DNA of 64,000 nt, taken from NCBI GenBank assembly GCA_964547475.1, contig CAZJNQ010000003.1, forward strand, positions 22,074-86,073. Reading direction: 5' to 3'. Source of the stretch: an uncultured Porphyromonadaceae bacterium (GTDB taxonomy: Bacteria; Bacteroidota; Bacteroidia; Bacteroidales; UBA12481). Made by a program: the position numbers and the translations under genes. Positions 28,162-41,773 of the stretch are shown piece after piece; the first letter of the stretch is position 1; every line of letters starts with the position of its first letter. The notes beneath the pieces are model-generated. The model did no database searches. It had not been told where the DNA came from and was given only the letters and a program-made list of their open reading frames with translations.

Positions 28162-29154
28162 ATGGAGGGATTCGTGAAGCGGTTCTGTTTTGCCATCTTG
28201 TCTTTTCTGGCCGTCCTGATCCTGAACGGGTGCCGGAATCCCGGAGAGGGACCGGGAACGGTCACTATCCTGGCCCTCAAAGGCCCGTCCGCGATGGGTA
28301 TGGTCGTTCTTATGGATTCCCTGAAGACAGTGGATGGAAAAGGGGTCAATATCGAGGTCCTGGAGGAGCCGATGCAGGTCAGGGCCCGGATGCTTGTTGA
28401 CAAACCCGAGATAGCCCTGCTTCCGCTCAATATGGCGTCTATCCTCTATAACAAGGGTCTGAAATACCAGTTGCTGGCTGTGCCTATTTGGGGCACCCTG
28501 TACCTGTTCGGGACCGATACGCTGATATCGGCGTGGCAGGACCTGAAGGGGAAAACGGTTTATATGATGGGAAAGGGAGCCACTCCGGACATCCTTTTCC
28601 GTTACCTTCTGGAGAAAAACGGGCTGGTCCCTGGCCAGGATGTAATACTGGATTACTCCTTCCCCACCCATCTGGATCTCGCCAATGCGGTCATTGCCGG
28701 GCAGGCGGATCTCGCGGTTCTCTCCGAACCGGAAGGCAGCCTGGCGCAGGAACGCAACGGTGCTGTCCGCTTGATCATGGACCTGAACCGTGAATGGGCC
28801 GAAGCCGTTCCTGAGAATCCGGGATTGCCACAGACGGCCCTGCTGGTCAGGAGTGATTTTGCCCGGGATCATGCATCCGGAATACTGGGAATTGCTGAAT
28901 CCTGGAAGCAATCGACGGAATGGGTGACACTGCATCCAACGCAGGCTGCCCGCCTGATCGTAGATCATCGTATATTACCCGACTCCTCAACGGCAGCCCG
29001 ATCCATACCCAGATCCAACCTCCAGTTCAAGTACGCTGAAGATGTACGCTCCTGCATTAACGGTTACCTTAAAGTTTTTTTTACTTTTAATCCTGATGCG
29101 GTGGGCGGCCACATGCCAGATGAAAAATTTATTTACACGAAACCGGATCATTAG
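28162..29154 (+). CDS. ABC transporter substrate-binding lipoprotein, NMT1/THI5-like (NitT/TauT family)
   Basis: Lipoprotein signal KRFCFAILSFLAVLILNGC. Periplasmic-binding-protein pattern. Alternative starts at 28144 (ATG) and 28174 (GTG). Confidence 0.75.
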   Translation: MEGFVKRFCFAILSFLAVLILNGCRNPGEGPGTVTILALKGPSAMGMVVLMDSLKTVDGKGVNIEVLEEPMQVRARMLVDKPEIALLPLNMASILYNKGLKYQLLAVPIWGTLYLFGTDTLISAWQDLKGKTVYMMGKGATPDILFRYLLEKNGLVPGQDVILDYSFPTHLDLANAVIAGQADLAVLSEPEGSLAQERNGAVRLIMDLNREWAEAVPENPGLPQTALLVRSDFARDHASGILGIAESWKQSTEWVTLHPTQAARLIVDHRILPDSSTAARSIPRSNLQFKYAEDVRSCINGYLKVFFTFNPDAVGGHMPDEKFIYTKPDH

Positions 29155-29875
29155 CCTTTCAGCAGTCGTCCTGCTACTGATCCTGTGGGAAATACTTTCG
29201 GTAACATCCGGATCGGACCAGATCCTGCCGGGACCTGACGATACTCTTGTCACCCTGGCCAGGATGGCCGGCACAACTGCTTTTTATCATTCCCTCCTGG
29301 CAACTCTGCTGAGGGGTTTGCTGGGTTTCGCCCTGGCTTTGGCCGTGGCGCTGGCCTTAGGCATCCCGGCCGGACTGAATTCGAGTTTTGAGGCGGCCAT
29401 CCGGCCTGTCATTGTCATCTTCCGTTCGACTCCGGTCATTTCCATCATCCTCCTGGCGCTGATCTGGTTCCAGGTAAACCAGGTTCCGGTTTTCATTGGT
29501 TTCCTGACCATGTTCCCCATCCTGACTACCAATATCTCACAGGGGATCCGCCATACCGAACCTTCCTACATCCAAATGGCGCGTCTGTATTCGGTGTCCG
29601 ATTCGCGTATCCTGCGTGAAATTTACCTTCCTTCCATCCTGCCCTGGCTGGTGTCGGGGATCTCCACTGCCGTGGGTTTTGGCTGGCGGTCAGTGATCAT
29701 CGGAGAGGTTTTGAGCCAGCCGCGATACGGAATCGGAGCCCTCATGCAGGATGCCCAGAGTTTCCTCCTGGTTTCCGAAGTGATCGCCTGGACGCTGGTG
29801 GCCATCCTGGTCGGATCCCTGTTCGAGTGGCTGATTCACCGTGGAGAAAAACGAATCATCCGATGGAAGCCATGA
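29120..29875 (+). CDS. ABC transporter permease (NitT/TauT family)
   Basis: About 6 TM segments. The segment ARLYSVSDSRILREIYLPSILP looks like the conserved cytoplasmic loop of binding-protein-dependent ABC permeases. Start taken at ATG 29120 (MKNLFTRNR...), which overlaps the substrate-binding-protein gene. Confidence 0.8.
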   Translation: MKNLFTRNRIISLSAVVLLLILWEILSVTSGSDQILPGPDDTLVTLARMAGTTAFYHSLLATLLRGLLGFALALAVALALGIPAGLNSSFEAAIRPVIVIFRSTPVISIILLALIWFQVNQVPVFIGFLTMFPILTTNISQGIRHTEPSYIQMARLYSVSDSRILREIYLPSILPWLVSGISTAVGFGWRSVIIGEVLSQPRYGIGALMQDAQSFLLVSEVIAWTLVAILVGSLFEWLIHRGEKRIIRWKP

Positions 29876-30543
29876 GCCTTGATCTAATAAATATTTCCAA
29901 ATCCTTTGGCGACCGGACCATTCTCGATGGCTTCAGCCTTTCGGTCCGGCCCGGTTCCGTCACCTGTCTGTTCGGACCATCGGGTTGTGGCAAAACGACT
30001 CTCTTGAACATCATGGGGGGGATCCTGGTGCCGGATTCAGGCATGGTGACCGGTTTTCCGGAAGAACAAAAGTCCTATATCTTCCAGGAAACCCGCATCC
30101 TGCCGTGGAAAACCGTCCTGGGCAATGTCCTGTTTCCGCTGGTTGACAGGATGCCCAGGCAGGAGGCTTTGGATCATGCTCGCGCGATGATCCGGATGGT
30201 CGGCCTGGAAAAAGAAGAGAAACTGTACCCCGGTCAGTTGAGCGGAGGGATGAAACAACGGGTGTCGATTGCCCGTGCATTCGCATTCCCGGGCACCCTG
30301 ATCCTGATGGATGAAGCTTTCCAGAACCTCGACAAAACCTTGAAGTACAACATACTGAATTCTTTTATGGAGATCTGGAAAAAGGACGGCCGGACCGTGG
30401 TATTTGTAACCCATGACATGGAAGAGGCCCTTTACATGGGACAACAAATCGTCCTGCTGGATGACCGACCCCTCCGGATCAGCAGGATCCTGGGCGAAGG
30501 CGACGAAAAAAACAGGGAAACTTTAATCCCCAAGCAGTTTTAA
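29863..30543 (+). CDS. ABC transporter ATP-binding protein (NitT/TauT family)
   Basis: Walker A GPSGCGKTT, signature LSGGMKQRVSIARA, Walker B LILMDEAF. An alternative ATG at 29872 forms an ATGA overlap with the permease stop. Confidence 0.88.
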   Translation: MEAMSLDLINISKSFGDRTILDGFSLSVRPGSVTCLFGPSGCGKTTLLNIMGGILVPDSGMVTGFPEEQKSYIFQETRILPWKTVLGNVLFPLVDRMPRQEALDHARAMIRMVGLEKEEKLYPGQLSGGMKQRVSIARAFAFPGTLILMDEAFQNLDKTLKYNILNSFMEIWKKDGRTVVFVTHDMEEALYMGQQIVLLDDRPLRISRILGEGDEKNRETLIPKQF

Positions 30544-33465
30544 GGAGAACATCAGCCCGTCGGTGCCCGTCGCATCGGGATTAAATCTCCGGGCATAACC
30601 GGCCGACCAGGTGGTTTTAAGATAGGAAAAAAGCACCAACTGGATATCAACCTGGGCTCCCAGGTTAAAGATGTGAGATATCTCTTCAGGCCTGTCAAAG
30701 TTCGTCATGATGTGGGTTCCGAAAAGGGAGGATTTGATGAATGTCGGATAAAGCCAGCTGGTTCCCACATCCCTCAGCCTGATGGGACGGAGGTTAATTT
30801 CTGCCATCGTTTTCACGTAATTATACGCCGGTATCTCGTCAATCTGGGCACCCGGGAAAGCCAGTGTTTTCCTGTAGTGTTCCGAAGGCTGCCAGTCGAG
30901 ATAATTGTTCCTGAATCCACCGAAATAAAAACTGGCCAGGCTCGATTCGCGGTCCCCGAAAGATTGGCCGACACTGTTCCGGATCCAGAAGCTGGTATTT
31001 TTTACGAATGGGACCATAACCCCGAAATCCTGGTTGGAAACGACCGAAGGGTAAAATTTTCCCAGTGCCAGGTAAGAGGTGGTGATCAGGTTCCAGGTAT
31101 ATCCGCATTCATCTTCCACGCCACCCAGGGTTTTTCTGAGCTTTGAAATGCCGATGGAGGCTGTCGCGGCCTGCATGCTCCTGATCGGTGAAGTCACGTT
31201 CTGGTAATCGGGTAAAACCTCCAGGTCACCATAATGGTAAACGCCGAAATCGTAGTTCCATTTGAAAGGCGACTTAAGTGTATATTGCCTTTCATGGGCG
31301 ATTCCCAGGGTATATCCCGCGCGGCTTCTCCGTGTCGGACCGAAAAGGTCATAAAAATGGGTTGGATTGTAGTTAGCCTTCAAACTCCAGCTCCAGAATT
31401 TCCATTGAAGCTGGGCATGGATCTTTTGCTTGTTGTCATCGGAGCTCCAGGGTGAAGCGGCCAGGAAAAGGTCAATGTCACTCAGGCCCAGCGGATCCCT
31501 CCAGTTCAGCCGGTAACCGACAGCCACCGTTTTCTTGAACCCGGCCAGATCGGGATAGGCGTTGGCAAGCCTCATCTGGGCGATGGGCCTGTAAGCCTCC
31601 ACTTTCAGGGAATCAGCGCTGGGGCCTGATTGGGAGGCAGGCGGCAGAGACCACTCTTCAACCACAGGATTACTTTGATGCACCAGGTTCCCCAGGTAAA
31701 TGATCGAATTGGCATCTTCCAGCACCTTGACCGGTATGATCCCCGGAGTCATCCCATCGCGATGGAACTTCAAGACCAGCAAGGAATCACTGTTCATCTG
31801 CAAGGGCATGAAAAGACCCGTTTCCGTATTGGACATCAGTTCAAAACTGTTGTCCTCCAGCCTGATCCGCCAGACATTGGATACGCCCGTATAATAAGAA
31901 GTCCCGATCAGGTACCGGTCATCCAAAGAAAATTTGAACTGGGTCAGGGTATTGTCCTCAAGCGTCAGAACGCTATGGTATCTGATCATTCCCTGGTCCA
32001 ATTCATTAATATCAAACAAGATAACCGATTGTTCACCCCGGATTCCCGACAGGGAGGCACAGAGCCGGTCACCCCGGTTGGAGACAGCCAGGTCAAAAAT
32101 GGCCTTGCCGAACGGAGCCGTGTAAATCGGGATCACACGGTCATAAGGCTCCGGGATTTTAACCAGGATGGAATAACCGTTATCGTTCCTTATTCCCCAC
32201 AGGCTTCTGTCAACCGGATTGTAAACCAGGTCGCCCGCCCGGGTCATGCGGTTGATTATTCTCTTCCTTCCGGACTTAACGTCTATTTCCACCAGGTTGC
32301 GGTATTTCTGGTTATGTTCGCTGATAAAAATCTTTTCCCGTGCCGGGTCATAGGCCAAACTGGTCGAGAAATACATCTGCGGTGAATCCAGGGTGGCTAC
32401 CTTCCGCATTTTTCCGGTCCGGACATCGATTTCGGCAATTTGCGAGACAATGCCGGGATAATTGACCGCTGCATAGATTTTACCGGTCGCGGGATTATAT
32501 CCGTAATTGGAAACATTGCCCAGCGGCTTGGTCGTAATGGCAGAGAACGGTGTAAGTGGAAACTCCTTGATCCGTCCTATGTTCTCCTGCTGAAAACGGA
32601 TTTCCCACCGGGTCCAGTCGTCCCATGCCTTCTTGAGAGGCATCTGGTATACATTCCGGAACTGGCCGGCAAAGAAGGATCTGCTGCTGTCTGTCCGCGT
32701 ATAGAATGCTTTCAGTTTGTCAATCCCGTACTGGTTGGCCAGATAGGTGACGAAACGGGTTCCGTAGAGGTAGGAGTTGGCGCCAACCTGAAAATCAATG
32801 GTCGTGCCTTCGGTCTCCAATCCGACAAGGGAATAGATGCGCTTGTTTTCATTGACGATGCTGCGGAAATACATCTCGTCATAAGTTCCCATCGTCCGGC
32901 CCAGGCCACCCGACATCCATGTTTCCATGAAGCACGCAATCCCTTCATGGTACCAGCGGGGAGTGTACCAGCGGGGAACGGTGACATAACTCCACAGCGC
33001 AGACACAGGCTTTTCCTCATTCCTCCTGACTTTGCCGTAAATGGCATTGCGGAATACTTGATCGGTCCGGTTGGCCTTATCGGCCATGACGACATGGGTG
33101 AGTTCGTGGTTGAAGAGCCACTGAAACCGTTCGTTTGACGGAATGATGCTGAAGGCAAATCCATAGGGTTCGATCCCGATCTGCACCTGGCTGAAAGGCA
33201 TGACCAGTGCCCCGGCATGACCCATGTCCTCGAAATCATTCAGGATAACGTACAGGGTTGTATCCTCGTAATTCCAGAGATTATGGTGAAAAGCCATGGC
33301 GTTGGCATAGGTCTGGGAAACATGAGGCAAGAGGTATGAATAACGTTTCCCGAAAAAGATCAGGTCGAGATTGTCAATCTTAACATGGTTGATCCTTTGG
33401 GCGAACAGCCCTGCACCTCCTGACCATAACAGACCGGATAGCAGAACAGGCAGCAGGCACCTCAT
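30523..33465 (-). CDS. Secreted 980-aa protein: N-terminal HExxH (HELTH...HEG) metallopeptidase-like domain, central beta-propeller-like repeats, beta-rich C-terminal region
   Basis: Signal peptide MRCLLPVLLSGLLWSGGAGLFAQ; FNHELTHVV plus downstream WYHEGIACFMETW. Repetitive strand-turn segments in the middle (...YNPATGKIYAAV..., ...YDPAREKIFISE..., ...YNPVDRSLWGIR...). No family name recognised with confidence. Confidence 0.6.
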   Translation of the reverse strand: MRCLLPVLLSGLLWSGGAGLFAQRINHVKIDNLDLIFFGKRYSYLLPHVSQTYANAMAFHHNLWNYEDTTLYVILNDFEDMGHAGALVMPFSQVQIGIEPYGFAFSIIPSNERFQWLFNHELTHVVMADKANRTDQVFRNAIYGKVRRNEEKPVSALWSYVTVPRWYTPRWYHEGIACFMETWMSGGLGRTMGTYDEMYFRSIVNENKRIYSLVGLETEGTTIDFQVGANSYLYGTRFVTYLANQYGIDKLKAFYTRTDSSRSFFAGQFRNVYQMPLKKAWDDWTRWEIRFQQENIGRIKEFPLTPFSAITTKPLGNVSNYGYNPATGKIYAAVNYPGIVSQIAEIDVRTGKMRKVATLDSPQMYFSTSLAYDPAREKIFISEHNQKYRNLVEIDVKSGRKRIINRMTRAGDLVYNPVDRSLWGIRNDNGYSILVKIPEPYDRVIPIYTAPFGKAIFDLAVSNRGDRLCASLSGIRGEQSVILFDINELDQGMIRYHSVLTLEDNTLTQFKFSLDDRYLIGTSYYTGVSNVWRIRLEDNSFELMSNTETGLFMPLQMNSDSLLVLKFHRDGMTPGIIPVKVLEDANSIIYLGNLVHQSNPVVEEWSLPPASQSGPSADSLKVEAYRPIAQMRLANAYPDLAGFKKTVAVGYRLNWRDPLGLSDIDLFLAASPWSSDDNKQKIHAQLQWKFWSWSLKANYNPTHFYDLFGPTRRSRAGYTLGIAHERQYTLKSPFKWNYDFGVYHYGDLEVLPDYQNVTSPIRSMQAATASIGISKLRKTLGGVEDECGYTWNLITTSYLALGKFYPSVVSNQDFGVMVPFVKNTSFWIRNSVGQSFGDRESSLASFYFGGFRNNYLDWQPSEHYRKTLAFPGAQIDEIPAYNYVKTMAEINLRPIRLRDVGTSWLYPTFIKSSLFGTHIMTNFDRPEEISHIFNLGAQVDIQLVLFSYLKTTWSAGYARRFNPDATGTDGLMFSLKLLGD

Positions 33466-33479
33466 CCGGAAGAAATGTT

Positions 33480-34709
33480 TTATCTGATGGTACCCAGTTT
33501 GTCGGCGTCGAGGATGGCCATACCCATCTTATCTGCGTCCATGAATATACCCAGCTTGTCTGCATCCAGGACATAGCCCATCTTTTCCGCGTCACGAATA
33601 ATGCCCATCTTTTCGGCGTCCAGGATAGTGCCCATCTTTTCGGCATCCACTATTATGGTTCCCATTTTTTCGGCATCCAGATACGTGCCCATCTTTTCAG
33701 CGTCCGCTACCAAAAACCCTATTAATTCCGCATCGAAATAGACCTCTCCCAGTTTATCCGCATCGGTGATGATGAAAGGCCCGAGTTTTTCAGTGTCAAA
33801 AATCGCCAGTTGTTCAATATTCCCTATTAGACCGAGCTGTTGTGCATCCAGATAATAATCACCCATTTTCTCCGCATCGGCGGCCATTCCCATTTTTTCA
33901 GCATCCATGGCACCCAGCTTTTCAGCATCAACGATCCGGAGCTTTTCAGATTCGCTCCAGGCGCCCATTTGTTCAACGTCATGTTGTACCTGCTTCATTG
34001 TAGCCGCATGGTCATACCAGCGGAGTTTGCGGTAATCCGTCAGCAGGGTCTTTTTGCCAAGGAATTTTTGCATGACCTTGTCTCCTGTGACCAGTGAAGC
34101 GTTAGCCATATTCACCGCCAGGATGTCATGAGCCTGTTTGAGCCCCTCATAATCACCTGATTGATTGGAAGACAGGAAGGATTCCGCCTGGTTGATGAAA
34201 TCCACGACCACCCGGCAGCGATAGTTCTTTTGTGCGATCACGTTGTTGACCTGGTTAAGGGAGTTCCGGATCAGGGCCGGATCCGTGTTTTTAGGATCCT
34301 GCACGGCAGCCAGGGCAGCCAGGAAATAACCTCTCGTGGATGCCAGGTAGGTCCCATAACTGTTTAATTCCTTGATCTGTCTGGTCCCAAATGCCTTGAA
34401 AGCTTCGGCTCCATTCGCTTCAGTCACGGCCTTGCTGATGTTCCCCGCTACCTGGATCGCATCCAGGTAATGGTACGTGATGTAATTACGGAGTACCCTT
34501 AGACCAGCAGTGTCTGACACCAGGTCATTCTGAAGCCGGATATCGGCTTCGGAAACCTTGATGTTGCGGTATTTGTCCACCTTGGTTATGGTTCCGGCCA
34601 GTTCTTCATCCTCCACTTTCGGATAATCGACCGTAATGCCCACCAGGAAACCAATGATCAGCCCGGCTACAACACCGGCTACGATCATAAGGATGCTCGA
34701 CTTTTTCAT
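33480..34709 (-). CDS. Signal-anchored protein A (409 aa) with a conserved ~210-aa domain and a C-terminal DAEK[LM]G repeat array
   Basis: MKKSSILMIVAGVVAGLIIGFLVG N-terminal anchor. Residues 1-250 align without gaps to the neighbouring paralog. C-terminus holds ~16 repeats. 14-nt gap to the downstream 980-aa gene. Confidence 0.85.
   Translation of the reverse strand: MKKSSILMIVAGVVAGLIIGFLVGITVDYPKVEDEELAGTITKVDKYRNIKVSEADIRLQNDLVSDTAGLRVLRNYITYHYLDAIQVAGNISKAVTEANGAEAFKAFGTRQIKELNSYGTYLASTRGYFLAALAAVQDPKNTDPALIRNSLNQVNNVIAQKNYRCRVVVDFINQAESFLSSNQSGDYEGLKQAHDILAVNMANASLVTGDKVMQKFLGKKTLLTDYRKLRWYDHAATMKQVQHDVEQMGAWSESEKLRIVDAEKLGAMDAEKMGMAADAEKMGDYYLDAQQLGLIGNIEQLAIFDTEKLGPFIITDADKLGEVYFDAELIGFLVADAEKMGTYLDAEKMGTIIVDAEKMGTILDAEKMGIIRDAEKMGYVLDADKLGIFMDADKMGMAILDADKLGTIR
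33483..33983 (-). repeat. Coding tandem repeat, ~16 units of 9-11 codons (hh-D-A-E/D-K-L/M-G-x-h)
   Basis: ...VDAEKLGAMDAEKMGMAADAEKMG...DAEKMGTYLDAEKMGTIIVDAEKMGTILDAEKMGIIRDAEKMGYVLDADKLGIFMDADKMGMAILDADKLGTIR. The DNA shows a recurring cccatcttttcggcrtcc. Confidence 0.9.
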
Positions 34710-34835
34710 ACAATGAGTTTTAGGTTGATACCAATAATCAGGTCAATAAAGATAACATGTGCTCAAAACAATTGCAAACATCCAGCTTAAGTATAGCTAA
34801 AATAACCAAGATTTAATGAGGGGCCGGTCCTGATT

Positions 34836-35924
34836 CTATTCCACGCCCAGTTTTTCGACATCCAGTAAAGTCGCCAACCTTTCAGCGTCAAAAAAACCAA
34901 ACTTTTCGGCATCCAGTAAAGTCGCCAACCTTTCAGCGTCAAAAAAACCAAGTTTTTCAGCATCGAAGAAGATATCCAGTTTGTTTGCATCGTAAAACCG
35001 CCCACCCAGCTTTTCAGCGTCCGCAATGATAGTGCCCACCCTATCCGCATCCAGGAACGCTATAGCCATTTTCTCAGCATCACCGAAAAAAACCCCTCTT
35101 TTGTCGCTATCCCGGACAATGGCATAACCCAGCTTTTCCGCATCGATAAACTGATATTTCTCTACATCATCCATTGCACCGAGTTTCTCAGCATCCTGGC
35201 GCACCTGTTTCACCGTCTTACCCTGATCGTACCAGGCCAATTTCCGGTAATCGGTCAGCAAAGCCTTGTTACCCAGCAATTTCTGCAAGACTTTATCACC
35301 TGTCTTGACAGAGGCGTTAACCAAATCCAAGGCGAGGATGTCATGCGCCTCCCTGAGTCCCGGAAACTCACCCGGTTTGACTGATACCATGAAGGATCCG
35401 GTCTTGTCGATAAAATTGAGGACCGTGCGGATGCGATAGTTCTTTTGTGCAATGATGTTATTCGCAAGGTTCAGTGAATTCCGGATCATTTCAGCATTCG
35501 TGTTTTCGGGGTCGCGGATGGCAGCCAGGGCAGCCAGATAATAGAGGCGCGTAGAGTTCAGGTACAGGCCGAAATTATTCATGCCGTCAATCTGGTTTTC
35601 CGCTGAAGACCTGAAAGCTTCTGCAGAATTGGCTTCCGCAACTGCCTTCTCTATGTCCCCTGCCAACTTGATGGCATCCAGGTAGTGAAATGTGAGATAG
35701 CGCCTTAGCATGCCTAAGCTCGCTGTATCCGAAACCAGGTTATTCTGGAGCCTGATTTCAGCTTCTGTCACCTTGGTGTTCCGGTATTTTTTCACCTTGG
35801 TTATGGTTCCTGCCACCGAATCATCCGGGACAACGGATTCTTTCACCACGATGCCGACCAGGAAGCCGATGATCATGCCTGCGACTGTACCGCCTGCGAT
35901 TATAAGAGCAAGTGATTTTTTCAT
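34836..35924 (-). CDS. Signal-anchored protein B (362 aa), paralog of protein A, with C-terminal DAEKLG/DAERLA repeat array
   Basis: MKKSLALIIAGGTVAGMIIGFLVG anchor from the ATG at 35924. 40 of the first 60 residues are identical to protein A by manual count. ~13 C-terminal repeats. Confidence 0.85.
   Translation of the reverse strand: MKKSLALIIAGGTVAGMIIGFLVGIVVKESVVPDDSVAGTITKVKKYRNTKVTEAEIRLQNNLVSDTASLGMLRRYLTFHYLDAIKLAGDIEKAVAEANSAEAFRSSAENQIDGMNNFGLYLNSTRLYYLAALAAIRDPENTNAEMIRNSLNLANNIIAQKNYRIRTVLNFIDKTGSFMVSVKPGEFPGLREAHDILALDLVNASVKTGDKVLQKLLGNKALLTDYRKLAWYDQGKTVKQVRQDAEKLGAMDDVEKYQFIDAEKLGYAIVRDSDKRGVFFGDAEKMAIAFLDADRVGTIIADAEKLGGRFYDANKLDIFFDAEKLGFFDAERLATLLDAEKFGFFDAERLATLLDVEKLGVE
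34839..35198 (-). repeat. Coding tandem repeat, ~13 units of 8-11 codons (DAEKLG / DAERLA variants)
   Basis: QDAEKLGAMDDVEKYQFIDAEKLGYAIVRDSDKRGVFFGDAEKMAIAFLDADRVGTIIADAEKLGGRFYDANKLDIFFDAEKLGFFDAERLATLLDAEKFGFFDAERLATLLDVEKLGVE. Confidence 0.9.
34861..34962. repeat. Near-perfect 51-bp direct duplication inside the protein B repeat array
   Basis: tccagtaaagtcgccaacctttcagcgtcaaaaaaaccaa occurs identically at 34861-34900 and 34912-34951. The flanking 11 bp differ at a few positions. Confidence 0.92.
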
Positions 35925-35957: not shown

Positions 35958-35965
35958 CAAAAATA
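35958..35965 (-). promoter_or_regulatory. Candidate -7 box TATTTTTG (minus strand) for the protein B / protein A / 980-aa operon
   Basis: Reverse complement of caaaaata at 35958-35965, 34 nt upstream of the ATG at 35924. Possible -33 TTGC about 22 nt further upstream. Confidence 0.35.
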
Positions 35966-36128: not shown

Positions 36129-36563
36129 ATGGGGAGCAACCAAAAATATAAAAGACTGGACATCAGGAATGACATCCAGGAGCTCAACCGGGTCGTTCCC
36201 TTCCTGGATCAGTTGCAGGAAGAATGGGATCTGCCTGTCAGCGTAATCCCGGCAATAAACCTGGCGTTGGAAGAAGCCCTCTCAAACATTATTTTTTATG
36301 GCATTGATCCCGGGATTGAAGAAGAGATCAGCATCGAGTTCAAAGCAGAAGGAAATTGCCTGAACATAATATTATCAGACACCGGAAAGGCTTTTGACCC
36401 GACGCAAAACTCGGAACCGGATCTGGATCTTCCGGCCGAGGTAAGACCGATAGGCGGCCTGGGTATTTTCCTGATCCGCAAAATGATGGATGAAGTCAGT
36501 TACGAGCGGATCAACGGCACCAACCGCCTTGTGATGGTCAAACATTGGGATATCAACAAATGA
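36129..36563 (+). CDS. RsbW/SpoIIAB-like anti-sigma regulatory factor (HATPase_c Ser/Thr kinase)
   Basis: N-box LEEALSNIIFYG, then DTGKAFDP, then G-box PIGGLGIFLIRKMMDEV. 144 aa. Confidence 0.85.
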   Translation: MGSNQKYKRLDIRNDIQELNRVVPFLDQLQEEWDLPVSVIPAINLALEEALSNIIFYGIDPGIEEEISIEFKAEGNCLNIILSDTGKAFDPTQNSEPDLDLPAEVRPIGGLGIFLIRKMMDEVSYERINGTNRLVMVKHWDINK

Positions 36564-36579
36564 CAAATAACCTTAACAC

Positions 36580-36909
36580 ATGAAAATCACAACACAAACC
36601 AAAGGGAACGACATTTATGTTCAGGTTGAGGGACGTATAGACACGACCAACTCAATTGATTTTGAAAATACAGTCAGTCAGGCATTGACGAACGAAGTGA
36701 AGCAAATTTATCTCGACTGCAGCGAGCTGAACTATATCAGCAGCTCCGGGCTGCGCGTATTGCTTACTTTTCTTAAAAAAATGATGGCTGCCGGGGGAAC
36801 CCTCAAACTCTATTCGCTTCAACCGGCCATAAAAGAGATATTCGACATTTCCGGATTTTCCACCATCTTCCCGATCTTTCCTGATCTGGTGGCAGCACAG
36901 GAAAATTAA
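36580..36909 (+). CDS. STAS-domain anti-sigma-factor antagonist (SpoIIAA/RsbV-like)
   Basis: 109 aa. ...LDCSELNYISSSGLRVLL... carries the conserved phosphorylatable Ser context, followed by IFDISGF. Confidence 0.85.
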   Translation: MKITTQTKGNDIYVQVEGRIDTTNSIDFENTVSQALTNEVKQIYLDCSELNYISSSGLRVLLTFLKKMMAAGGTLKLYSLQPAIKEIFDISGFSTIFPIFPDLVAAQEN

Positions 36910-36967
36910 ACCCATTGATCCGTATGCCGTAAGCGGCCCGGAAACGCAGAATAAGAAAGACAACCGA

Positions 36968-37957
36968 ATGGAAATTGTTGTCAGCATATTTCCGGTTTTT
37001 CTTTTCACCGCTTTTCTCTTTCTGCTCGACAGTTTCAAGCTGGTCATCAAAAAATACCTCGCCTTCGCTCTCCTTTGGGGTATCGCCAGTGCCGTGCTGG
37101 CTTATTTCTGCAACAATTTCATCCTTGATGTGGCGCGGATGAAACCGGTGACTTACTCCCGGTACTTGGCTCCGGCTATCGAGGAAGCCATCAAACTCTT
37201 GTTTATCTTTCTGATATTATCCAGAAAACGGATCGGCTTCATGACGGATGCCGCCATCTACGGATTTGCCGTCGGAGCCGGATTTGCCCTTGCCGAGAAC
37301 ATTTTTTTCCTGAAAACTGCAGGTAATTCAAACCTCCTGGTCTGGATCATCCGCGGCTTGGGAACGGCAACCATGCACGGAACCTGCACTTCGCTGGCTT
37401 CGATCATCCTGATTGGCGGTAAAAGCCGGAACACCTCGTTTCTTCTTTCCATCACCCTGGCCGTTGCCACCGCCTACGTGATCCATTCCGCTTTCAACCA
37501 TTTCTATGTCAACCCGATATGGCAGACCATCGCTATCATCATTCTTGCCCCTATCCTGTTTATCCTGATCTTTAAGCTGACCGAAACGCAGCTCCAGAAA
37601 TGGCTTGAAATTGAATTCTCGAGCGAAATAGAATTACTCAAGATGATCAACCAGGGTCGGTTTTTATCCACCCGGTCGGGTCAATTCCTGGCCTCCCTGC
37701 AATCACGTTTCGTCGGGGAAACCATCCTGGATATGTATTGTTTTATCAGCCTCTACCTGGAATTGTCAGTCAAGGCCAAAAGAAATGTCATGCTCAGGGA
37801 AAATGGCTTTCCGGTGATGGCTGAAAAAGACACGGGCGATAAGATCCTGGAGCTGAAACAACTCAGAAAGAGGATCGGGAAGGTCGGGGAGTTGACGTTG
37901 GCGCCCCTCATCCGGATGAACTACCGCAGCCTGTGGAAACTGACTTATCTGGAATAA
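36968..37957 (+). CDS. PrsW-family intramembrane protease with ~120-aa C-terminal soluble extension
   Basis: Polytopic. PAIEEAIKLLF (EExxK), GFALAENIFF, TATMHGTCT and IHSAFNH match the PrsW signature as I recall it. Residues ~205-329 are non-membrane. Confidence 0.7.
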   Translation: MEIVVSIFPVFLFTAFLFLLDSFKLVIKKYLAFALLWGIASAVLAYFCNNFILDVARMKPVTYSRYLAPAIEEAIKLLFIFLILSRKRIGFMTDAAIYGFAVGAGFALAENIFFLKTAGNSNLLVWIIRGLGTATMHGTCTSLASIILIGGKSRNTSFLLSITLAVATAYVIHSAFNHFYVNPIWQTIAIIILAPILFILIFKLTETQLQKWLEIEFSSEIELLKMINQGRFLSTRSGQFLASLQSRFVGETILDMYCFISLYLELSVKAKRNVMLRENGFPVMAEKDTGDKILELKQLRKRIGKVGELTLAPLIRMNYRSLWKLTYLE

Positions 37958-37984: not shown

Positions 37985-38608
37985 TTACTCCCGGTGGTAT
38001 TTCACGTAAAAAGCCACTTTCTCCAGGGAAGTGATCATGTCATATTCCTCAAGAAAGATATGCGGCGGCATATTGAGCGGAACGGTTGTAAAATTCATGA
38101 TCCCGCGTATGCCCGTGTCTGACAGCCGGTCAGCGATCTTCTTGGCATTCTCAGGAGGTACTGTAAGAATGGCAATGGATATCTGAAGGTCCCTGATGAG
38201 TTGTTCCAGCGAATCCATGGAGTAGCATTTGACACCGGCAATCACATGGCCAATCTTATCCGGATCCACATCAAAAGTCGCTGTGATTTTGAGCTTCGAA
38301 CGTTTACCCCTGAAATAGCCCGTAACAGCGCGACCGAGGTTACCGGCCCCGATCACGGCCACGTTCAGGCCTTCATCCGTATCAATCAAATTCCCTATTG
38401 CTGCAATCAGTTCACTGATATCATAACCTTTGCGCTGCATGCTCGTGAAACCCATGAGCATCATGTCCCTGCGAACCTGAACCGCCGTAATATGGTTCAA
38501 AGCCGCCAGCTCGTGGGAATAAATATGGGTTTTCCCACCGGTCAGGCAAACCAGCAGAATCCGCCTGTAAGCACTGAGTCTTTCGACCGTTTTCTCAGGT
38601 AAGTTCAT
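37985..38608 (-). CDS. rex: Redox-sensing transcriptional repressor Rex
   Basis: N-terminal TVERLSAYRRIL winged helix, Rossmann VIGAGNLGRAV, ~207 aa. Confidence 0.9.
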   Translation of the reverse strand: MNLPEKTVERLSAYRRILLVCLTGGKTHIYSHELAALNHITAVQVRRDMMLMGFTSMQRKGYDISELIAAIGNLIDTDEGLNVAVIGAGNLGRAVTGYFRGKRSKLKITATFDVDPDKIGHVIAGVKCYSMDSLEQLIRDLQISIAILTVPPENAKKIADRLSDTGIRGIMNFTTVPLNMPPHIFLEEYDMITSLEKVAFYVKYHRE

Positions 38609-38712
38609 GGTTTTCAGGAATTAATTAATCAAAAATAATAAATCAGCCCAATACAGGCAACAACAACCTGAAGGCCTTGTCCTGCAAATGGCTTATACCA
38701 TTAATATACGCA

Positions 38713-38748
38713 AAAGGGAGGCTTTCCAATGGATGAGTCTCCCTTTTT
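38713..38748 (-). terminator. Stem-loop AAAGGGAGGCT / AGTCTCCCTTT (one G-U pair) flanked by A/T runs; probable intrinsic terminator after hydA
   Basis: Inverted repeat read directly, 23 nt downstream of the hydA stop on the minus strand and followed there by TTTTG. It lies between hydA and rex. Confidence 0.55.
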
Positions 38749-38770
38749 ACAGACGGTGGTCCCGAAAGGT

Positions 38771-40564
38771 CTAATAGCGTTTTCTCGGAACGTAATGGGT
38801 ATGCAGCAACGCGTGGGACTTATGGCTATTGGGAGTTCCCAGGAACTCCTCATAGATCAGCTTGACCTCAGGATTTTCATGCGATTTCCGTATAGGCAAG
38901 CCTTCATCTTCCTGATAAATGGCCGCTGCACGTTTTTCGCGGATCTCCTGGCTGGTGGGAATCGGTTGGCCGCCACCGCCCAGGCAACCGCCGGGGCAGG
39001 CCATGACCTCGATGAAATGATAATGGGCGGTGCCATCCTTGACGGCCTGCATCAGCCGGCGCGCGTTAACCAGGCTATGAGCCACGGCACAGGATACTTC
39101 TACGCCTTCAAGGAATTTCCAGTCGGGCAGGCAGCCTTCGATTTTGATTTTGGCTTCCCTGACTCCTTCCATTCCCCTTACTGGGGTTATTTTCAGGTCA
39201 GTGAAGGGCACTTCCCGTCCGGTGACCACTTCATAAACGGTTCTTAAGGCGGCTTCCATCACACCACCGGTGACTCCGAAGATCACCGCTGCTCCGGTCG
39301 AATCGCCCATGATGCTGTCATAAGGGCTTTCTTCAAGGTTCTGGAAATGAATTCCAGCCTGCTTGATCATCATCCCCAGTTCACGGGTGGTCAACACATA
39401 ATCCACATCCTTGTATCCGCTCGACCGCATTTCCGGACGATTGGCTTCATATTTCTTTGCCGTGCACGGCATGATGGACACCACGCAGATATCCTGGGCC
39501 TTTAATCCCTTCTTCTGGGCATAATAGGTTTTAGCCAGTGCACCGAACATTTGCTGGGGCGATTTGCAAGTCGAAACATTGGGTAAAAATTCCGGGAAAG
39601 TGTGTTCGATGAACTTGATCCAGCCCGGCGAACAGGAAGTAGTCATGGGCAGGGCGACGGTCGTGTCTTTCTCCACCAGGGCTCTCTTCAGGCGTGTAAG
39701 AAGTTCGGTCCCCTCTTCCAGAATGGTGAGGTCGGCTGTAAAATCTGTGTCAAGCACGGAATCAAAACCCAAGCGCCTCAGGGCCGTGACCATTTTACCG
39801 GTCAGCCTTTCACCCGGATCGTAACCGAGTTCTTCTCCGATCGCCACCCTGACGGCAGGGGCGGTCTGAACCACGACATGCACGTTCGGATTGTTGATCG
39901 CGTCCCAGACCTCTTCAACATAGGTTTTTTCAACCAGGGCTCCCACCGGGCAACGGTTGACGCATTGGCCGCAGTTGGTGCAGACTACTTCAACCAAAGG
40001 CCGGTTAAGGAAGGTGGATATCTTCATTCGATCGCCCTTGTAAGCGACATCCAGGGCGGAAACACCCTGTAACTCGGCACAGGTCCTGACGCAGCGCTGG
40101 CACCGGATGCATTTGCTGTCGTCCTTTATGATTGAAGGTGACAGATCATCGATTCCCCTCTTTTTGGTGCCCAACAGATCGATGAACACGTGATCCCCGA
40201 CCCTGTACTCATAAGCCAGGCTCTGAAGCTCGCAATTGCCATTCTTGTAACATTTCGTGCAATCTGCATTGTGCTCAGACAAAAGAAGTTCAATGATGGT
40301 TTTCCGGGCTGTCCGGACCTTGGCGCTATTGGTGTGGATCTGCATCCCTTCAGAAACCGGTGTGGCACAGGCCGCGATCAGTGTTTTACCTGCGATCTGT
40401 TCCACGACACAAACCCGGCAATTGCCGGCCACGCAGAGATCCTGATGGTAGCAAAGGGTCGGAATCCTGAAATCAAGTTTCTTGGCAGCATCCAGGATCG
40501 TTGTTCCTTCGGGAACAGAAACCGGTATATCGTTTATTGTCAGATTGACCAGATATTTCTTCAT
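38771..40564 (-). CDS. hydA: [FeFe]-hydrogenase catalytic subunit (2Fe-2S + His-ligated 4Fe-4S + 2x4Fe-4S + H-cluster domain)
   Basis: H-cluster motifs TSCSPGW (L1 variant), MPCTAKKYE (L2) and EVMACPGGCLGGGGQP (L3). N-terminal CYHQDLCVAGNCRVCVVE. Start at ATG 40564 (MKKYLVNLTINDI). Confidence 0.9.
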   Translation of the reverse strand: MKKYLVNLTINDIPVSVPEGTTILDAAKKLDFRIPTLCYHQDLCVAGNCRVCVVEQIAGKTLIAACATPVSEGMQIHTNSAKVRTARKTIIELLLSEHNADCTKCYKNGNCELQSLAYEYRVGDHVFIDLLGTKKRGIDDLSPSIIKDDSKCIRCQRCVRTCAELQGVSALDVAYKGDRMKISTFLNRPLVEVVCTNCGQCVNRCPVGALVEKTYVEEVWDAINNPNVHVVVQTAPAVRVAIGEELGYDPGERLTGKMVTALRRLGFDSVLDTDFTADLTILEEGTELLTRLKRALVEKDTTVALPMTTSCSPGWIKFIEHTFPEFLPNVSTCKSPQQMFGALAKTYYAQKKGLKAQDICVVSIMPCTAKKYEANRPEMRSSGYKDVDYVLTTRELGMMIKQAGIHFQNLEESPYDSIMGDSTGAAVIFGVTGGVMEAALRTVYEVVTGREVPFTDLKITPVRGMEGVREAKIKIEGCLPDWKFLEGVEVSCAVAHSLVNARRLMQAVKDGTAHYHFIEVMACPGGCLGGGGQPIPTSQEIREKRAAAIYQEDEGLPIRKSHENPEVKLIYEEFLGTPNSHKSHALLHTHYVPRKRY

Positions 40565-40581
40565 GATATCCGCTGTTTTGC

Positions 40582-41748: not shown

Positions 41749-41773
41749 TGTTTTCAGCTTATAGATTCGACAG

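What the first reader, a model, noticed from the sequence alone, without database searches (positions are those of the whole stretch)
33480..35924. Two tandem paralogs of a signal-anchored protein ending in long arrays of an unrecognised 9-11-residue 'hh-D-A-E-K-[LM]-G' repeat
What the sequence shows:
- Both proteins start with MKKS followed by a ~20-residue hydrophobic helix, so almost nothing would lie in the cytoplasm and the rest is predicted to be periplasmic.
- They share a ~210-residue non-repetitive domain that aligns without gaps. 40 of the first 60 residues are identical by my count, and LTDYRKL falls at 223-229 in both.
- From about residue 243 both dissolve into ~16 (protein A) and ~13 (protein B) consecutive short repeats: DAEKMGTIL, DAEKMGIIR, DADKLGIFM, DAERLATLL and so on.
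- The last repeats of protein A are nearly uniform, which suggests homogenisation.

Interpretation:
- I cannot place either the repeat or the upstream domain in any family I know.
- A nonapeptide period with invariant Asp and Gly superficially recalls RTX beta-roll repeats (GGxGxDxUx), but the motif is different.
- D-AEK[LM]-G also reads like an N-capped single helical turn closed by Gly.
- Either way this would be a new short-period solenoid-type repeat exposed in the cell envelope.
Basis: partly seen in the sequence, partly recalled or inferred. Interest (0 to 1): 0.82.

Follow-up and report, generated by a model that had tools for sequence, protein, structure and literature searches.

The report
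Repeat-tailed envelope proteins beside PrsW protease
Two adjacent genes encode inner-membrane-anchored proteins of an undescribed Bacteroidota family that end in 13-18 copies of a short 'DAEKLG' motif; the family nearly always sits next to a PrsW membrane protease and a large outer-membrane protease-like protein, which suggests an uncharted envelope signalling or proteolysis device.

Summary
Two minus-strand ORFs, A (33480-34709, 409 aa) and B (34836-35924, 362 aa), are paralogs. Each has a 4-residue cytoplasmic stub, one TM helix, a ~200-residue helical domain and a tail of hh-D-A-E-K-[LM]-G units spaced 8-11 residues apart.

- **Reading frame:** it is the translated one. Homologs at 27-56% identity keep the motif, the core units use all synonymous codons, and dN/dS is below 1.
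- **Known families:** neither part belongs to one. The only Pfam hit, DUF1118, is reproduced by a synthetic repeat. RTX criteria fail.
- **Structure:** AlphaFold gives a confident helical bundle with no significant PDB match, and no solenoid for the tail (pLDDT 25-30). The tail's fold stays unresolved.
- **Context (new):** in 61 of 66 genome loci, 1-4 tandem copies sit directly upstream of a highly conserved 980-aa protein. That protein has an HExxH domain, a TolB-like beta-propeller and an Omp85-like barrel.
- **Neighbours:** 59 of 66 loci carry a PrsW protease, often with an ECF sigma/anti-sigma pair and RsbW/STAS.
- **Shared segment:** the family and the co-located anti-sigma factors share a GxxxG TM helix followed by a juxtamembrane '[SA]-G-T-[IM]' motif.

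Best reading: a PrsW-coupled inner-membrane protein whose multivalent tail engages the outer-membrane protein. The mechanism is inferred.

The parts
34836..35924 (-). Gene B: 362-aa member of the new family, called 'X' here. It is the upstream paralog.
   Evidence: ORF. 56% identical to A. Exact protein present in public collections. dN/dS against a close relative is 0.13 for the N-part and 0.36 for the tail.
33480..34709 (-). Gene A: 409-aa member of the same family. It is the downstream paralog, and its stop lies 14 nt before the start of the 980-aa ORF.
   Evidence: 27 homolog clusters; 387 representatives at E<=1e-3. dN/dS is 0.23 for the N-part and 0.66 for the tail.
34629..34694 (-). A residues 6-27: signal-anchor TM helix with a GxxxGxxxG glycine zipper (G16, G20, G24).
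   Evidence: G20 and G24 are invariant in 28 sequences and at least 90% conserved in 104. AlphaFold helix 3-26.
35844..35909 (-). B residues 6-27: signal-anchor TM helix with the same glycine zipper.
34563..34601 (-). A residues 37-49: juxtamembrane motif L-A-G-T-I-T-K-V-D-K-Y-R-N. This is the best-conserved segment of the family, and its 'h-[SA]-G-T-[IM]' core is shared with the co-located anti-sigma factors of related loci.
   Evidence: G39 and R48 are invariant, and T40, I41, K43, Y47 and N49 are at least 90% conserved. Consensus of 104 sequences. hhalign against anti-sigma TM-plus-linker segments gives P 1.7e-6 (reversed control 1.3e-3). The juxtamembrane part alone gives 7.9e-4 against 0.12. 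AlphaFold pLDDT is 42-44 here, so the segment is not part of the bundle.
35778..35816 (-). B residues 37-49: the same juxtamembrane motif (V-A-G-T-I-T-K-V-K-K-Y-R-N).
33981..34562 (-). A residues 50-243: all-helical bundle domain with no known family.
   Evidence: AlphaFold block-mean pLDDT 77-97 with 8-9 helices. Foldseek against PDB gives a best E of 0.48. No Pfam hit.
35196..35777 (-). B residues 50-243: the same helical domain.
   Evidence: Ungapped 61.7% identity to A over residues 1-243.
33483..33980 (-). A residues 244-409: tail of 17 strict units plus 1 degenerate unit, D-A-E-K-[LM]-G followed by 2-5 mostly hydrophobic residues. Net charge -19.
   Evidence: TRF periods of 27 and 54 nt. 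AlphaFold pLDDT 25-30.
34839..35195 (-). B residues 244-362: tail of 10 strict units plus 3 degenerate units. Net charge -12. It contains one recent 51-nt duplication.
30523..33465 (-). 980-aa partner gene, co-oriented with A and B. Domain order: signal peptide; HExxH (H120-E-L-T-H124) peptidase-MA-like domain at ~25-300; TolB-like beta-propeller at ~317-578; ~16-strand Omp85-like barrel at ~632-978.
   Evidence: AlphaFold model, pLDDT 71.8. Foldseek hits TolB at E 4e-10. Pfam Peptidase_MA_2 hits 10 of 20 homologs and Omp85_2 hits 8 of 20, all weakly. Homologs are 60-90% identical. An X gene lies directly upstream in 61 of 66 loci.
36968..37957 (+). PrsW-family membrane metalloprotease (329 aa) with EExxK, FxxxEN and HxxxN motifs and a ~130-aa C-terminal extension that has no family. 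It is transcribed divergently from B.
   Evidence: Pfam PF13367 at E 1.4e-21. Sequence. Present in 59 of 66 related loci, usually immediately upstream of X on the same strand.
36129..36909 (+). RsbW-like anti-sigma kinase (36129-36563) and STAS anti-sigma antagonist (36580-36909), in one operon-like run with prsW.
   Evidence: Pfam HATPase_c_2 at 4.7e-22 and STAS at 3.7e-21. RsbW/STAS occur in 35 of 66 related loci.
35958..35965 (-). TATTTTTG, a match to the Bacteroidetes -7 promoter consensus TAnnTTTG, lying 34 nt upstream of the ATG of B.
   Evidence: Read from the sequence. The consensus comes from my own knowledge. A single short match is weak evidence.
30513..30532 (-). Terminator-like hairpin plus T-run immediately after the stop of the 980-aa ORF. 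No such site lies between B, A and the 980-aa gene on this strand.
   Evidence: This is a consensus scan, and the number of sites found is not above the shuffled controls, so the evidence is weak.

Best explanation
A and B are tandem paralogs of an undescribed Bacteroidota protein family, called X here.

Architecture (shown by sequence and model):
- A 4-residue cytoplasmic stub.
- One glycine-zipper TM helix.
- A highly conserved extended juxtamembrane motif ([LV]-[AS]-G-T-I-x-K-V-x-x-Y-R-N).
- A helical-bundle domain of ~200 residues.
- A fast-evolving acidic tail of 8-11-residue units built on D-[AS]-E-K-[LM]-G plus hydrophobic spacers.

Context (shown by synteny): X is one part of a conserved module with the order [RsbW-STAS]-PrsW-(ECF sigma - anti-sigma)-X(1-4 copies)-980-aa protein. 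The 980-aa protein is a predicted outer-membrane barrel. By the usual topology of even-stranded outer-membrane proteins, its HExxH peptidase-like domain and TolB-like beta-propeller should face the periplasm.

Mechanism (inferred):
- X is anchored in the inner membrane next to PrsW. Its TM helix and juxtamembrane motif resemble those of the neighbouring anti-sigma factor and act as the docking or cleavage determinant for PrsW.
- The repeat tail is a multivalent array of one short motif that reaches the periplasmic propeller or peptidase domains of the 980-aa protein, as ligand or substrate.
- X would then couple the state of the outer-membrane protein to PrsW-dependent proteolysis. In sigma-containing loci the outcome is ECF sigma activation. 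In sigma-less loci such as this window, the outcome is shedding or turnover of X itself.

Each repeat unit most likely forms an Asp-capped, Gly-terminated single helical turn followed by a short hydrophobic linker. Whether the array folds on its own is unknown.
For: Family and architecture:
- The family is real and translated in this frame.

Synteny over 66 non-redundant loci:
- X lies directly upstream of the 980-aa gene in 61.
- PrsW is present in 59, a sigma factor in 38, an anti-sigma factor in 27.
- In sigma-less loci PrsW, X and the 980-aa gene are separated by 0-20 nt or overlap. The conserved core is therefore PrsW-X-980, not PrsW-anti-sigma.
- PrsW in the window keeps its catalytic motifs.

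Shared TM and juxtamembrane module between X and the anti-sigma factors:
- hhalign gives P 1.7e-6 against 1.3e-3 for the reversed control.
- The juxtamembrane part alone gives 7.9e-4 against 0.12.

The 980-aa protein:
- The model shows an HExxH domain, a TolB-like propeller and a barrel.
- TolB propellers are solved in complex with the short TolB-box peptides of colicins E9 and A (entries listed). That those colicin segments are natively disordered is from my own knowledge.

Tail properties expected of a motif array rather than a fixed fold:
- Spacing varies from 8 to 11 residues, and strict-motif copy number runs from 0 to 15 among the 104 full-length X ORFs of the genome loci, and up to 17 in gene A.
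- Two-unit indels separate close relatives.
- The motif is kept across synonymous codons.
- dN/dS is higher in the tail than in the N-domain but still below 1.

Rate of evolution: X evolves much faster than its partners in the same 55 genomes. Median identity is 34% for X, 53% for PrsW and 65% for the 980-aa protein.
Against: - No direct evidence of any physical interaction or cleavage exists. Everything rests on gene neighbourhood.
- X has no cytoplasmic domain, so cleaving it cannot release a regulator in the way RsiW cleavage does.
- The shared juxtamembrane motif is short. Its P value comes from a single hand-picked comparison, and the TM-to-motif spacing differs by about 5 residues between the two families.
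- The tail is too hydrophobic for a typical disordered region. It falls on the folded side of the Uversky boundary (H 0.496 against 0.454).
- The low pLDDT may only reflect a shallow 28-sequence alignment in which repeats are misaligned.
- In sigma-containing loci a simpler reading is available: PrsW cleaves the anti-sigma factor, and X and the 980-aa protein are merely regulon members.
- A few genomes carry the 980-aa gene without an adjacent X (L033, L080, L088).
Confidence: 0.42

Rival explanations
1. The tail is an autonomously folding new short-period solenoid, possibly stabilised by divalent cations in the way RTX beta-rolls are. It would serve as a rigid periplasm-spanning spacer or scaffold.
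For: - The motif has near-invariant Asp and Gly with a regular hydrophobic pattern.
- The tail is strongly acidic: D+E is 21.6% and net charge is -19.
- Its hydropathy lies on the 'folded' side of the Uversky boundary.
- TRF finds double-unit DNA periods of 54 and 51 nt, reminiscent of two units per coil.
- The low AlphaFold confidence could be an artefact of a shallow, repeat-misaligned alignment.
Against: - No model shows a solenoid, and pLDDT is 25-30 over the whole tail.
- Unit length varies from 8 to 11 residues within one protein, and longer irregular gaps occur.
- The dominant hydrophobic periodicities are ~40 and ~120 degrees, not the alpha or beta values.
- Family members swap the motif for degenerate or unrelated low-complexity repeats while keeping the N-domain.
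- The units lack the GGxGxD Ca-binding turn, and position 5 is hydrophobic where Ca-binding DxDxDG loops need a ligand residue.
Confidence: 0.2
2. X and the 980-aa protein are simply co-transcribed output genes of the ECF sigma / PrsW stress pathway, for example envelope maintenance proteins. X has no direct contact with PrsW, and its tail is a tolerant low-complexity spacer.
For: - In 38 of 66 loci an ECF sigma factor lies between prsW and X, and in 27 an anti-sigma factor as well. ECF operons often carry their target genes (own knowledge).
- The tail has relaxed constraint, with dN/dS of 0.36-0.66.
- The tail can be replaced by other repeats.
Against: - About 20 loci, including this window, lack the sigma/anti-sigma pair yet keep an intact PrsW tightly linked to X and the 980-aa gene.
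- The best-conserved part of X is a juxtamembrane motif shared with the anti-sigma factor.
- The motif core is held by selection across synonymous codons.
Confidence: 0.2
3. The tail is a multi-copy peptide precursor. The HExxH domain of the 980-aa protein, or another protease, cuts between units and releases many 8-11-residue peptides that act as signals or are exported through the barrel.
For: - The same short unit is repeated 13-18 times up to within 2-4 residues of the C-terminus.
- An HExxH protein with a propeller, a fold that gates peptide access in prolyl oligopeptidases, is encoded immediately downstream.
Against: - No dibasic or other obvious inter-unit cleavage signal is present.
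- Spacers are variable and hydrophobic.
- No modification enzymes or peptide exporter lie in the locus.
- Distant members lack a uniform unit.
Confidence: 0.07
4. The repeats form amphipathic helices that lie on a membrane surface, like the 11-mer repeats of apolipoproteins, synucleins and LEA proteins.
For: The tail mixes charged and hydrophobic residues. Units of 10-11 residues would fit a 3.3-3.67 residue-per-turn helix.
Against: - The commonest unit is 9 residues, followed by 10 and 8.
- Hydrophobic periodicity shows no peak near 100 degrees.
- A near-invariant Gly interrupts every unit.
Confidence: 0.05
5. The repeat frame is not translated, and the array is a non-coding or out-of-frame DNA repeat.
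For: Other frames of the array also give short repetitive ORFs, for example 33380..33646 on the minus strand.
Against: - The motif is conserved at the protein level down to 27% identity.
- Synonymous codon diversity occurs within units.
- dN/dS is below 1.
- The reading frame is continuous with a well-conserved N-domain.
Confidence: 0.01

Closest known systems
RsiW / PrsW site-1 proteolysis of a single-pass anti-sigma factor (Bacillus subtilis sigma-W pathway; similar prsW-sigma-anti-sigma loci in Clostridioides difficile)
   Same: - A PrsW-family protease is encoded beside a single-pass N-in membrane protein with an extracytoplasmic domain.
- Many related loci also hold an ECF sigma/anti-sigma pair.
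- X shares its TM-plus-juxtamembrane segment with those anti-sigma factors.
- PrsW is known to cut RsiW in its extracytoplasmic part, at Ala168/Ser169 (PMC8767453).
   Different: - X has only about 4 cytoplasmic residues and therefore no anti-sigma domain.
- Its outer part is a helical bundle plus repeat tail.
- It is always paired with a 980-aa outer-membrane protein, which has no counterpart in the Gram-positive systems.
- Cleavage of X is untested.
RTX nonapeptide beta-roll repeats (GGxGxDxUx, Pfam HemolysinCabind)
   Same: Both have a short (~9-residue) tandem unit with conserved Asp, Gly and a hydrophobic position, are acidic, and lie outside the cytoplasm.
   Different: - X units have a different consensus with no GG.
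- The unit length is variable.
- There is no Pfam hit and no beta-roll in the model.
- There are no type I secretion neighbours.
TonB / TolA: N-terminally anchored periplasm-spanning proteins with repetitive spacers
   Same: - A minimal cytoplasmic N-terminus with a single TM anchor.
- A repetitive charged region long enough to cross the periplasm.
- A genetic link to an outer-membrane barrel protein. Here that partner also carries a TolB-like propeller.
   Different: - No SHLS-type TM motif and no ExbBD/TolQR genes in the locus.
- No globular C-terminal domain.
- The repeat chemistry is unrelated to the Pro-rich or Ala/Lys/Glu-rich spacers of TonB and TolA.
Pfam DUF1118 (PF06549; cited only in plant papers)
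   Same: The tail of A scores 32-37 bits, above the gathering threshold. A few close homologs carry the same precomputed label.
   Different: - Only profile positions ~8-51 of 115 are matched.
- A synthetic (DAEKMGTIL)x12 scores 31.9 bits on the same positions.
- B and most family members do not hit, and the N-domain never hits.
- This is a local motif coincidence, not homology of the protein.
TolB-box peptides of colicins binding the TolB propeller; propeller-gated peptidases (prolyl oligopeptidase family)
   Same: A short peptide segment is proposed to engage a TolB-like propeller that sits next to a peptidase domain.
   Different: - This is an analogy only.
- The motif sequences are unrelated.
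- The peptidase here is an HExxH type fused to an outer-membrane barrel.

Membership tests
RTX / HemolysinCabind beta-roll repeats | Nonapeptide consensus GGxGxDxUx | tested here: not met
   The unit consensus is hh-D-[AS]-E-K-[LM]-G-hh, with no GG pair and Asp at a different position.
RTX / HemolysinCabind beta-roll repeats | Strict 9-residue register giving 18 residues per beta-roll turn | tested here: not met
   Spacings of 8, 9, 10 and 11 residues occur 111, 176, 145 and 74 times across the family. A mixes 8 to 11 within one array.
RTX / HemolysinCabind beta-roll repeats | Match to the Pfam model; predicted beta-roll | tested here: not met
   No HemolysinCabind hit at E<=1. AlphaFold shows no strands in the tail, with pLDDT 25-30.
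RTX / HemolysinCabind beta-roll repeats | Ca2+-dependent folding | not testable with these tools
   This needs CD, NMR or ITC on recombinant tail. Only the acidity is known (net charge -19).
Pfam DUF1118 (PF06549) | Match over most of the 115-position model, present in paralogs and orthologs | tested here: not met
   Only positions 7-51 are matched. B has no hit, and only 5 of 27 homolog clusters carry the label.
Pfam DUF1118 (PF06549) | The score reflects homology rather than the repeat motif alone | tested here: not met
   Synthetic (DAEKMGTIL)x12 scores 31.9 bits on positions 9-50. A residue-shuffled tail scores nothing.
PrsW substrates of the RsiW type (single-pass anti-sigma factors) | N-terminal cytoplasmic anti-sigma domain that binds an ECF sigma factor | tested here: not met
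   Only MKKS precedes the TM helix.
PrsW substrates of the RsiW type (single-pass anti-sigma factors) | Single TM, N-in, with an extracytoplasmic C-terminal part | tested here: met
   One hydrophobic helix at 3-26. Lys-Lys lies on the N side and an acidic stretch on the C side. Topology is inferred from the positive-inside rule.
PrsW substrates of the RsiW type (single-pass anti-sigma factors) | Genetic linkage to a PrsW-family protease | tested here: met
   PrsW lies within the locus in 59 of 66 cases and is often directly adjacent or overlapping. In the window it is at 36968-37957.
PrsW substrates of the RsiW type (single-pass anti-sigma factors) | Similarity to the bona fide neighbouring anti-sigma factors around the TM and juxtamembrane segment | tested here: inconclusive
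   hhalign gives P 1.7e-6 (reversed control 1.3e-3). The juxtamembrane part alone gives 7.9e-4 (control 0.12). The motif is short and the comparison is a single one.
PrsW substrates of the RsiW type (single-pass anti-sigma factors) | PrsW-dependent cleavage | not testable with these tools
   Needs genetics or biochemistry.
TonB/TolA-type periplasm-spanning energy transducers | N-terminal TM anchor plus a repetitive periplasmic spacer | tested here: met
TonB/TolA-type periplasm-spanning energy transducers | Conserved S-H-L-S-type TM motif and ExbBD/TolQR partner genes | tested here: not met
   The TM motif is GxxxGxxxG. No ExbB/ExbD/TolQ/TolR genes were seen in the gene lists of about 10 loci.
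TonB/TolA-type periplasm-spanning energy transducers | Globular C-terminal domain that binds the outer-membrane partner | tested here: not met
   Repeats run to within 2-4 residues of the C-terminus.
Intrinsically disordered arrays of short linear motifs | Low hydropathy and high net charge; low predicted order | tested here: inconclusive
   pLDDT 25-30, but hydropathy of 0.496 lies above the Uversky boundary of 0.454.

The most novel reading that the evidence does not exclude
The PrsW-X-980 triad is a previously unrecognised trans-envelope device of Bacteroidota. A new kind of short-period repeat array, made of Asp-capped, Gly-closed helical turns, physically bridges an inner-membrane PrsW protease and an outer-membrane protein that combines an HExxH peptidase domain, a TolB-like propeller and an Omp85-like barrel. 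Capture or cleavage of the repeat tail at the outer membrane would control PrsW proteolysis at the inner membrane. PrsW would then have a second, non-anti-sigma class of substrate.
Probability: 0.18. Interest if true: 0.8.

Novelty: new variant of a known kind. Interest (0 to 1): 0.6.

Why it matters
How PrsW-type site-1 proteases are switched on is still unclear, even in Bacillus. Envelope-stress sensing in Bacteroidota is also poorly mapped beyond the SusC/FecR-type transducers.

This locus defines a compact, strongly syntenic set of genes:
- PrsW;
- a single-pass repeat-tailed protein;
- an outer-membrane protein combining a peptidase domain, a TolB-like propeller and a barrel;
- often an ECF sigma/anti-sigma pair and an RsbW/STAS pair.

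A scan of one genome per GTDB species found 245 stretches encoding a relative of the 980-aa protein, and nearly all of the 80 loci kept carry Bacteroidota titles. The proposed links can be tested directly by genetics and pull-downs.

The locus also adds two unannotated protein families (X and the 980-aa protein) and a new short repeat motif whose structure and possible cation binding are unknown. It gives a concrete case in which a repeat motif is held by selection rather than by DNA homogenisation.

Tried and rejected
- **Pfam and NCBIfam on A and B.** Only DUF1118 hit. I rejected it as a motif artefact after the control with a synthetic repeat and a shuffled tail.
- **PDB sequence profile search with the family alignment and Foldseek of the A model.** Nothing significant. 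Weak resemblances to chemoreceptor, TorS and BAR helical bundles (probability <=0.2) were not pursued.
- **PADLOC defence models on all six proteins.** No hits, so there is no support for a defence system.
- **Rfam and tRNA scans of the window.** Nothing found.
- **The search for related loci with the X alignment.** It failed because no conserved 7-10-column stretch exists. I used the 980-aa protein as the handle instead.
- **Tail-only protein search.** It returned one fragment of the same family, so no other architecture carrying the repeat was found that way. The profile search found one unrelated Holosporales protein with AITxEKLGT 9-mers and one eukaryotic low-complexity hit.
- **Literature searches on PrsW in Bacteroidetes, PrsW with ECF context, and DUF1118.** No description of this module. 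The PrsW-toxin fusions of polymorphic toxin systems (PMC3482391) have a different architecture.
- **EF-hand or DxDxDG-like Ca loop.** Considered and rejected because position 5 of the unit is Leu/Met.
- **Mimicry of the 980-aa protein's C-terminal strand (SLKLLGD).** The match is only 'LG', which is too weak.
- **Resemblance to the RsiW cleavage-site sequence.** I recalled one from memory but could not verify the RsiW sequence with the tools, so I did not use it.

Full report
**1. What is there**

The minus strand carries two ORFs:
- B at 34836..35924 (362 aa from MKKS);
- A at 33480..34709 (409 aa).

They are followed, 14 nt after A's stop, by a 980-aa ORF at 30523..33465.

A and B are 56% identical (E 7e-142). 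Residues 1-243 align without gaps at 61.7% identity. 40 of the first 60 residues are identical, and LTDYRKL sits at 223-229 in both.

Each begins MKKS followed by a ~22-residue hydrophobic helix (AlphaFold helix 3-26). There is no lipobox and no AxA site, so each is a signal anchor with about 4 cytoplasmic residues. The topology is inferred from the positive-inside rule.

From residue 244 both proteins become tandem units of D-A-E-K-[LM]-G plus 2-5 mostly hydrophobic residues. A has 17 strict units and 1 degenerate unit. B has 10 strict and 3 degenerate units. Unit length is 8-11 residues.

**2. The frame is translated and the motif is selected**

- A word-indexed search of 5.8 billion proteins found 27 clusters, those with a source name being Bacteroidota MAGs.
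- An exhaustive profile search found 387 representatives at E<=1e-3, of which 115 are at <=1e-30.
- Homologs down to 27% identity keep the same architecture and the motif.
- Over 232 members and 1029 units the logo is hh(h)-D(75%)-[AS]-E(79%)-K(51%)-L(78%)/M-G-hh. Spacings of 8, 9, 10 and 11 residues occur 111, 176, 145 and 74 times.

Within A, the 17 core units use all synonymous codons: Ala 3/4/3/4 and Gly 5/6/3/2 over the four codons, with Asp and Lys split between both codons. The DNA array shows only 77-78% matches. The near-uniform peptide units are therefore kept by purifying selection, not by recent homogenisation.

Some turnover of units does occur:
- B carries one recent 51-nt duplication (93% matches);
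- A differs from a 91%-identical relative by an indel of two units.

Against a close relative (L091), dN/dS is as follows:

| Gene | N-part | Tail |
|---|---|---|
| A | 0.23 | 0.66 |
| B | 0.13 | 0.36 |

The tail is less constrained than the N-part but is still under purifying selection.

**3. Known families**

- Pfam and NCBIfam give nothing for the N-domain.
- A PDB sequence profile search finds nothing.
- AlphaFold (28-sequence alignment) gives a confident helical bundle for residues ~50-250, with block-mean pLDDT of 77-97. Foldseek against PDB finds no match better than E 0.48.

The only formal hit is DUF1118 (32-37 bits). I do not accept it as membership, for these reasons:
- it covers only profile positions ~8-51 of 115;
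- it is absent from B and from most homologs;
- a synthetic (DAEKMGTIL)x12 reproduces it at 31.9 bits, whereas a residue-shuffled tail scores nothing.

RTX membership fails on consensus, register, Pfam hit and model.

**4. Structure of the tail: unresolved**

- AlphaFold gives pLDDT 25-30 and no strands. The scattered short helices start right after the Asp of several units.
- The sequence grammar fits a capped single helical turn plus a hydrophobic linker: hydrophobic N', Asp as N-cap, A-E-K, Leu at N4, Gly as C-cap.
- The tail is nevertheless not a typical disordered sequence. D+E is 21.6% and net charge is -19 (A) and -12 (B). Mean hydropathy of 0.496 lies above the Uversky boundary of 0.454.
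- Hydrophobic periodicities fall at ~40 and ~120 degrees, not 100 or 160-180. Continuous amphipathic helices or strands are therefore unlikely.
- More distant members keep the N-domain but carry degenerate [DNS]x[EQ]xL[GQN] units, FNTDLID heptads, GSNTV pentads or a non-repeat C-domain.

Together this argues for a tolerant motif array rather than a fixed fold. It does not exclude a cation-induced fold.

**5. Context: the main new result**

Gene lists around homologs and 80 genome loci fetched through the 980-aa protein show one module: [RsbW-STAS]-PrsW-(ECF sigma - ~250-aa anti-sigma)-X(1-4 tandem copies)-980-aa protein.

Counts over 66 non-redundant loci with at least 2.5 kb of upstream sequence:

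| Feature | Loci |
|---|---|
| X directly upstream of the 980-aa gene, same strand | 61 |
| PrsW | 59 |
| ECF sigma | 38 |
| Anti-sigma | 27 |
| RsbW/STAS | 35 |

X copy number is 1, 2, 3 or 4 in 39, 14, 4 and 4 loci.

In about 20 loci the sigma/anti-sigma pair is absent and prsW, X and the 980-aa gene abut or overlap. In the window, RsbW (36129-36563), STAS (36580-36909) and PrsW (36968-37957) are transcribed divergently from B, and PrsW has EExxK, FxxxEN and HxxxN motifs. There is no sigma/anti-sigma pair in the window locus. The conserved core of the module is therefore PrsW-X-980.

The 980-aa protein is far better conserved than X. Median identity to the window proteins in the same 55 genomes is 65% for the 980-aa protein, 53% for PrsW and 34% for the X N-domain.

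Its AlphaFold model (pLDDT 71.8) shows, in order:
- a signal peptide;
- an alpha/beta domain carrying the invariant HELTH helix;
- a beta-propeller whose best PDB matches are TolB (E 4e-10, probability 1.00);
- a C-terminal barrel of about 16 strands.

Pfam support is weak: Peptidase_MA_2 hits 10 of 20 homologs and Omp85_2 hits 8 of 20. By the usual topology of even-stranded outer-membrane barrels, the soluble domains should face the periplasm, where the X tail also lies. This is an inference.

**6. A link between X and the anti-sigma factors**

The most conserved part of X is not the bundle. It is the TM glycine zipper (G20 and G24 invariant) and an extended juxtamembrane motif, [LV]-[AS]-G-T-I-x-K-V-x-x-Y-R-N (G39 and R48 invariant). 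AlphaFold leaves this motif outside the bundle (pLDDT 42-44).

The anti-sigma factors encoded between prsW and X in related loci have a GxxxG TM helix and, 12-20 residues later, h-[SA]-G-[TS]-[MIL].

| Profile-profile comparison | Forward P | Reversed control P |
|---|---|---|
| TM plus linker | 1.7e-6 (probability 90%) | 1.3e-3 |
| Juxtamembrane part alone | 7.9e-4 | 0.12 |

PrsW is known to cut the extracytoplasmic part of RsiW (PMC8767453). The similarity suggests, but does not prove, that X and the anti-sigma factor are recognised by the same partner.

**7. Mechanism proposed (inferred)**

- X sits beside PrsW through its TM and juxtamembrane module.
- Its tail presents 13-18 copies of one short motif to the periplasmic propeller and peptidase domains of the outer-membrane protein.
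- Engagement or degradation of the tail would set whether PrsW acts on X or on the anti-sigma factor.

The rivals and their weights are listed separately: a folded cation-dependent solenoid spacer, a mere regulon member, a multi-copy peptide precursor, and a membrane-binding amphipathic repeat.

**8. Novelty**

I found no Pfam or NCBIfam model, no structure and no paper describing X, the 980-aa protein or the module. The kind of system, regulated envelope proteolysis around an ECF sigma and PrsW, is known. These components and the repeat are new. I therefore rate it a new variant of a known kind, of moderate to high interest, with the mechanism still inferential.

Noticed in passing
window 30523-33465 (-): The 980-aa protein is itself an unannotated but very conserved family, at 60-90% identity across more than 100 clusters. 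It combines an invariant HExxH domain, a TolB-like beta-propeller and an Omp85-like barrel. A scan of one genome per species (185,579 species) found 245 matching stretches, and nearly all of the 80 loci kept carry Bacteroidota titles (two contigs carry Elusimicrobia and Thioalkalivibrio titles).
   Followed up: partly
window 36129-37957 (+): RsbW-like kinase, STAS protein and PrsW form one co-oriented run. PrsW carries a ~130-residue C-terminal extension with no Pfam match. A partner-switching pair controlling a membrane protease would be unusual.
   Followed up: no
L002 9177-9935, L010 5809-6546 and 26 other loci: The ~250-aa anti-sigma factors encoded between prsW and X share a GxxxG TM helix and a juxtamembrane h-[SA]-G-[TS]-[MIL] motif with the X family.
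   Followed up: yes
L017 13057-16928; L082 11502-16919: Some genomes carry a second, paralogous module next to the first: RsbW/STAS-PrsW-X(436-448 aa)-980 paralog. Its X protein has a Ser/Gln/Leu-rich degenerate tail instead of DAEKLG units.
   Followed up: no
proteins P0161, P0105; L041 5076-6095: Some family members keep the N-domain but carry unrelated tails: about 35 GSNTV pentads, FNTD[LN][IT][DG] heptads, or a non-repetitive ~180-residue C-domain.
   Followed up: partly
protein P0130 (Holosporales MAG, MDR0640820.1): An unrelated 990-aa protein holds about 55 near-perfect 9-mers AITxEKLGT. It scores above the Pfam RTX_C threshold (32.7 bits). This is probably an independent invention of an xEKLG nonapeptide.
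   Followed up: partly
window 37985-41850 (-): A Rex-type redox repressor gene sits beside [FeFe]-hydrogenase and NuoF-like genes. This neighbourhood to the X locus is conserved in relatives (L001, L005, L091), which points to a strict anaerobe.
   Followed up: no
window 25353-30543: A TonB-dependent receptor (819 aa) and a three-gene ABC transporter (NMT1/phosphonate-type binding protein, permease, ATPase) lie downstream of the 980-aa gene. They are syntenic in L001 and L005.
   Followed up: no
window 33380-33646 (-) and 34787-35050 (-): Out-of-frame ORFs across the repeat arrays translate to repetitive 'RWAL / KSWV'-type peptides. They are by-products of the DNA periodicity, not genes.
   Followed up: partly
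window 30523-30555 (-), C-terminus of the 980-aa protein: The last barrel strand ends in a near-invariant S-L-K-L-L-G-[DE] rather than an aromatic residue. It faintly echoes the '-K-L-G' of the X units, but the match is too short to interpret.
   Followed up: no
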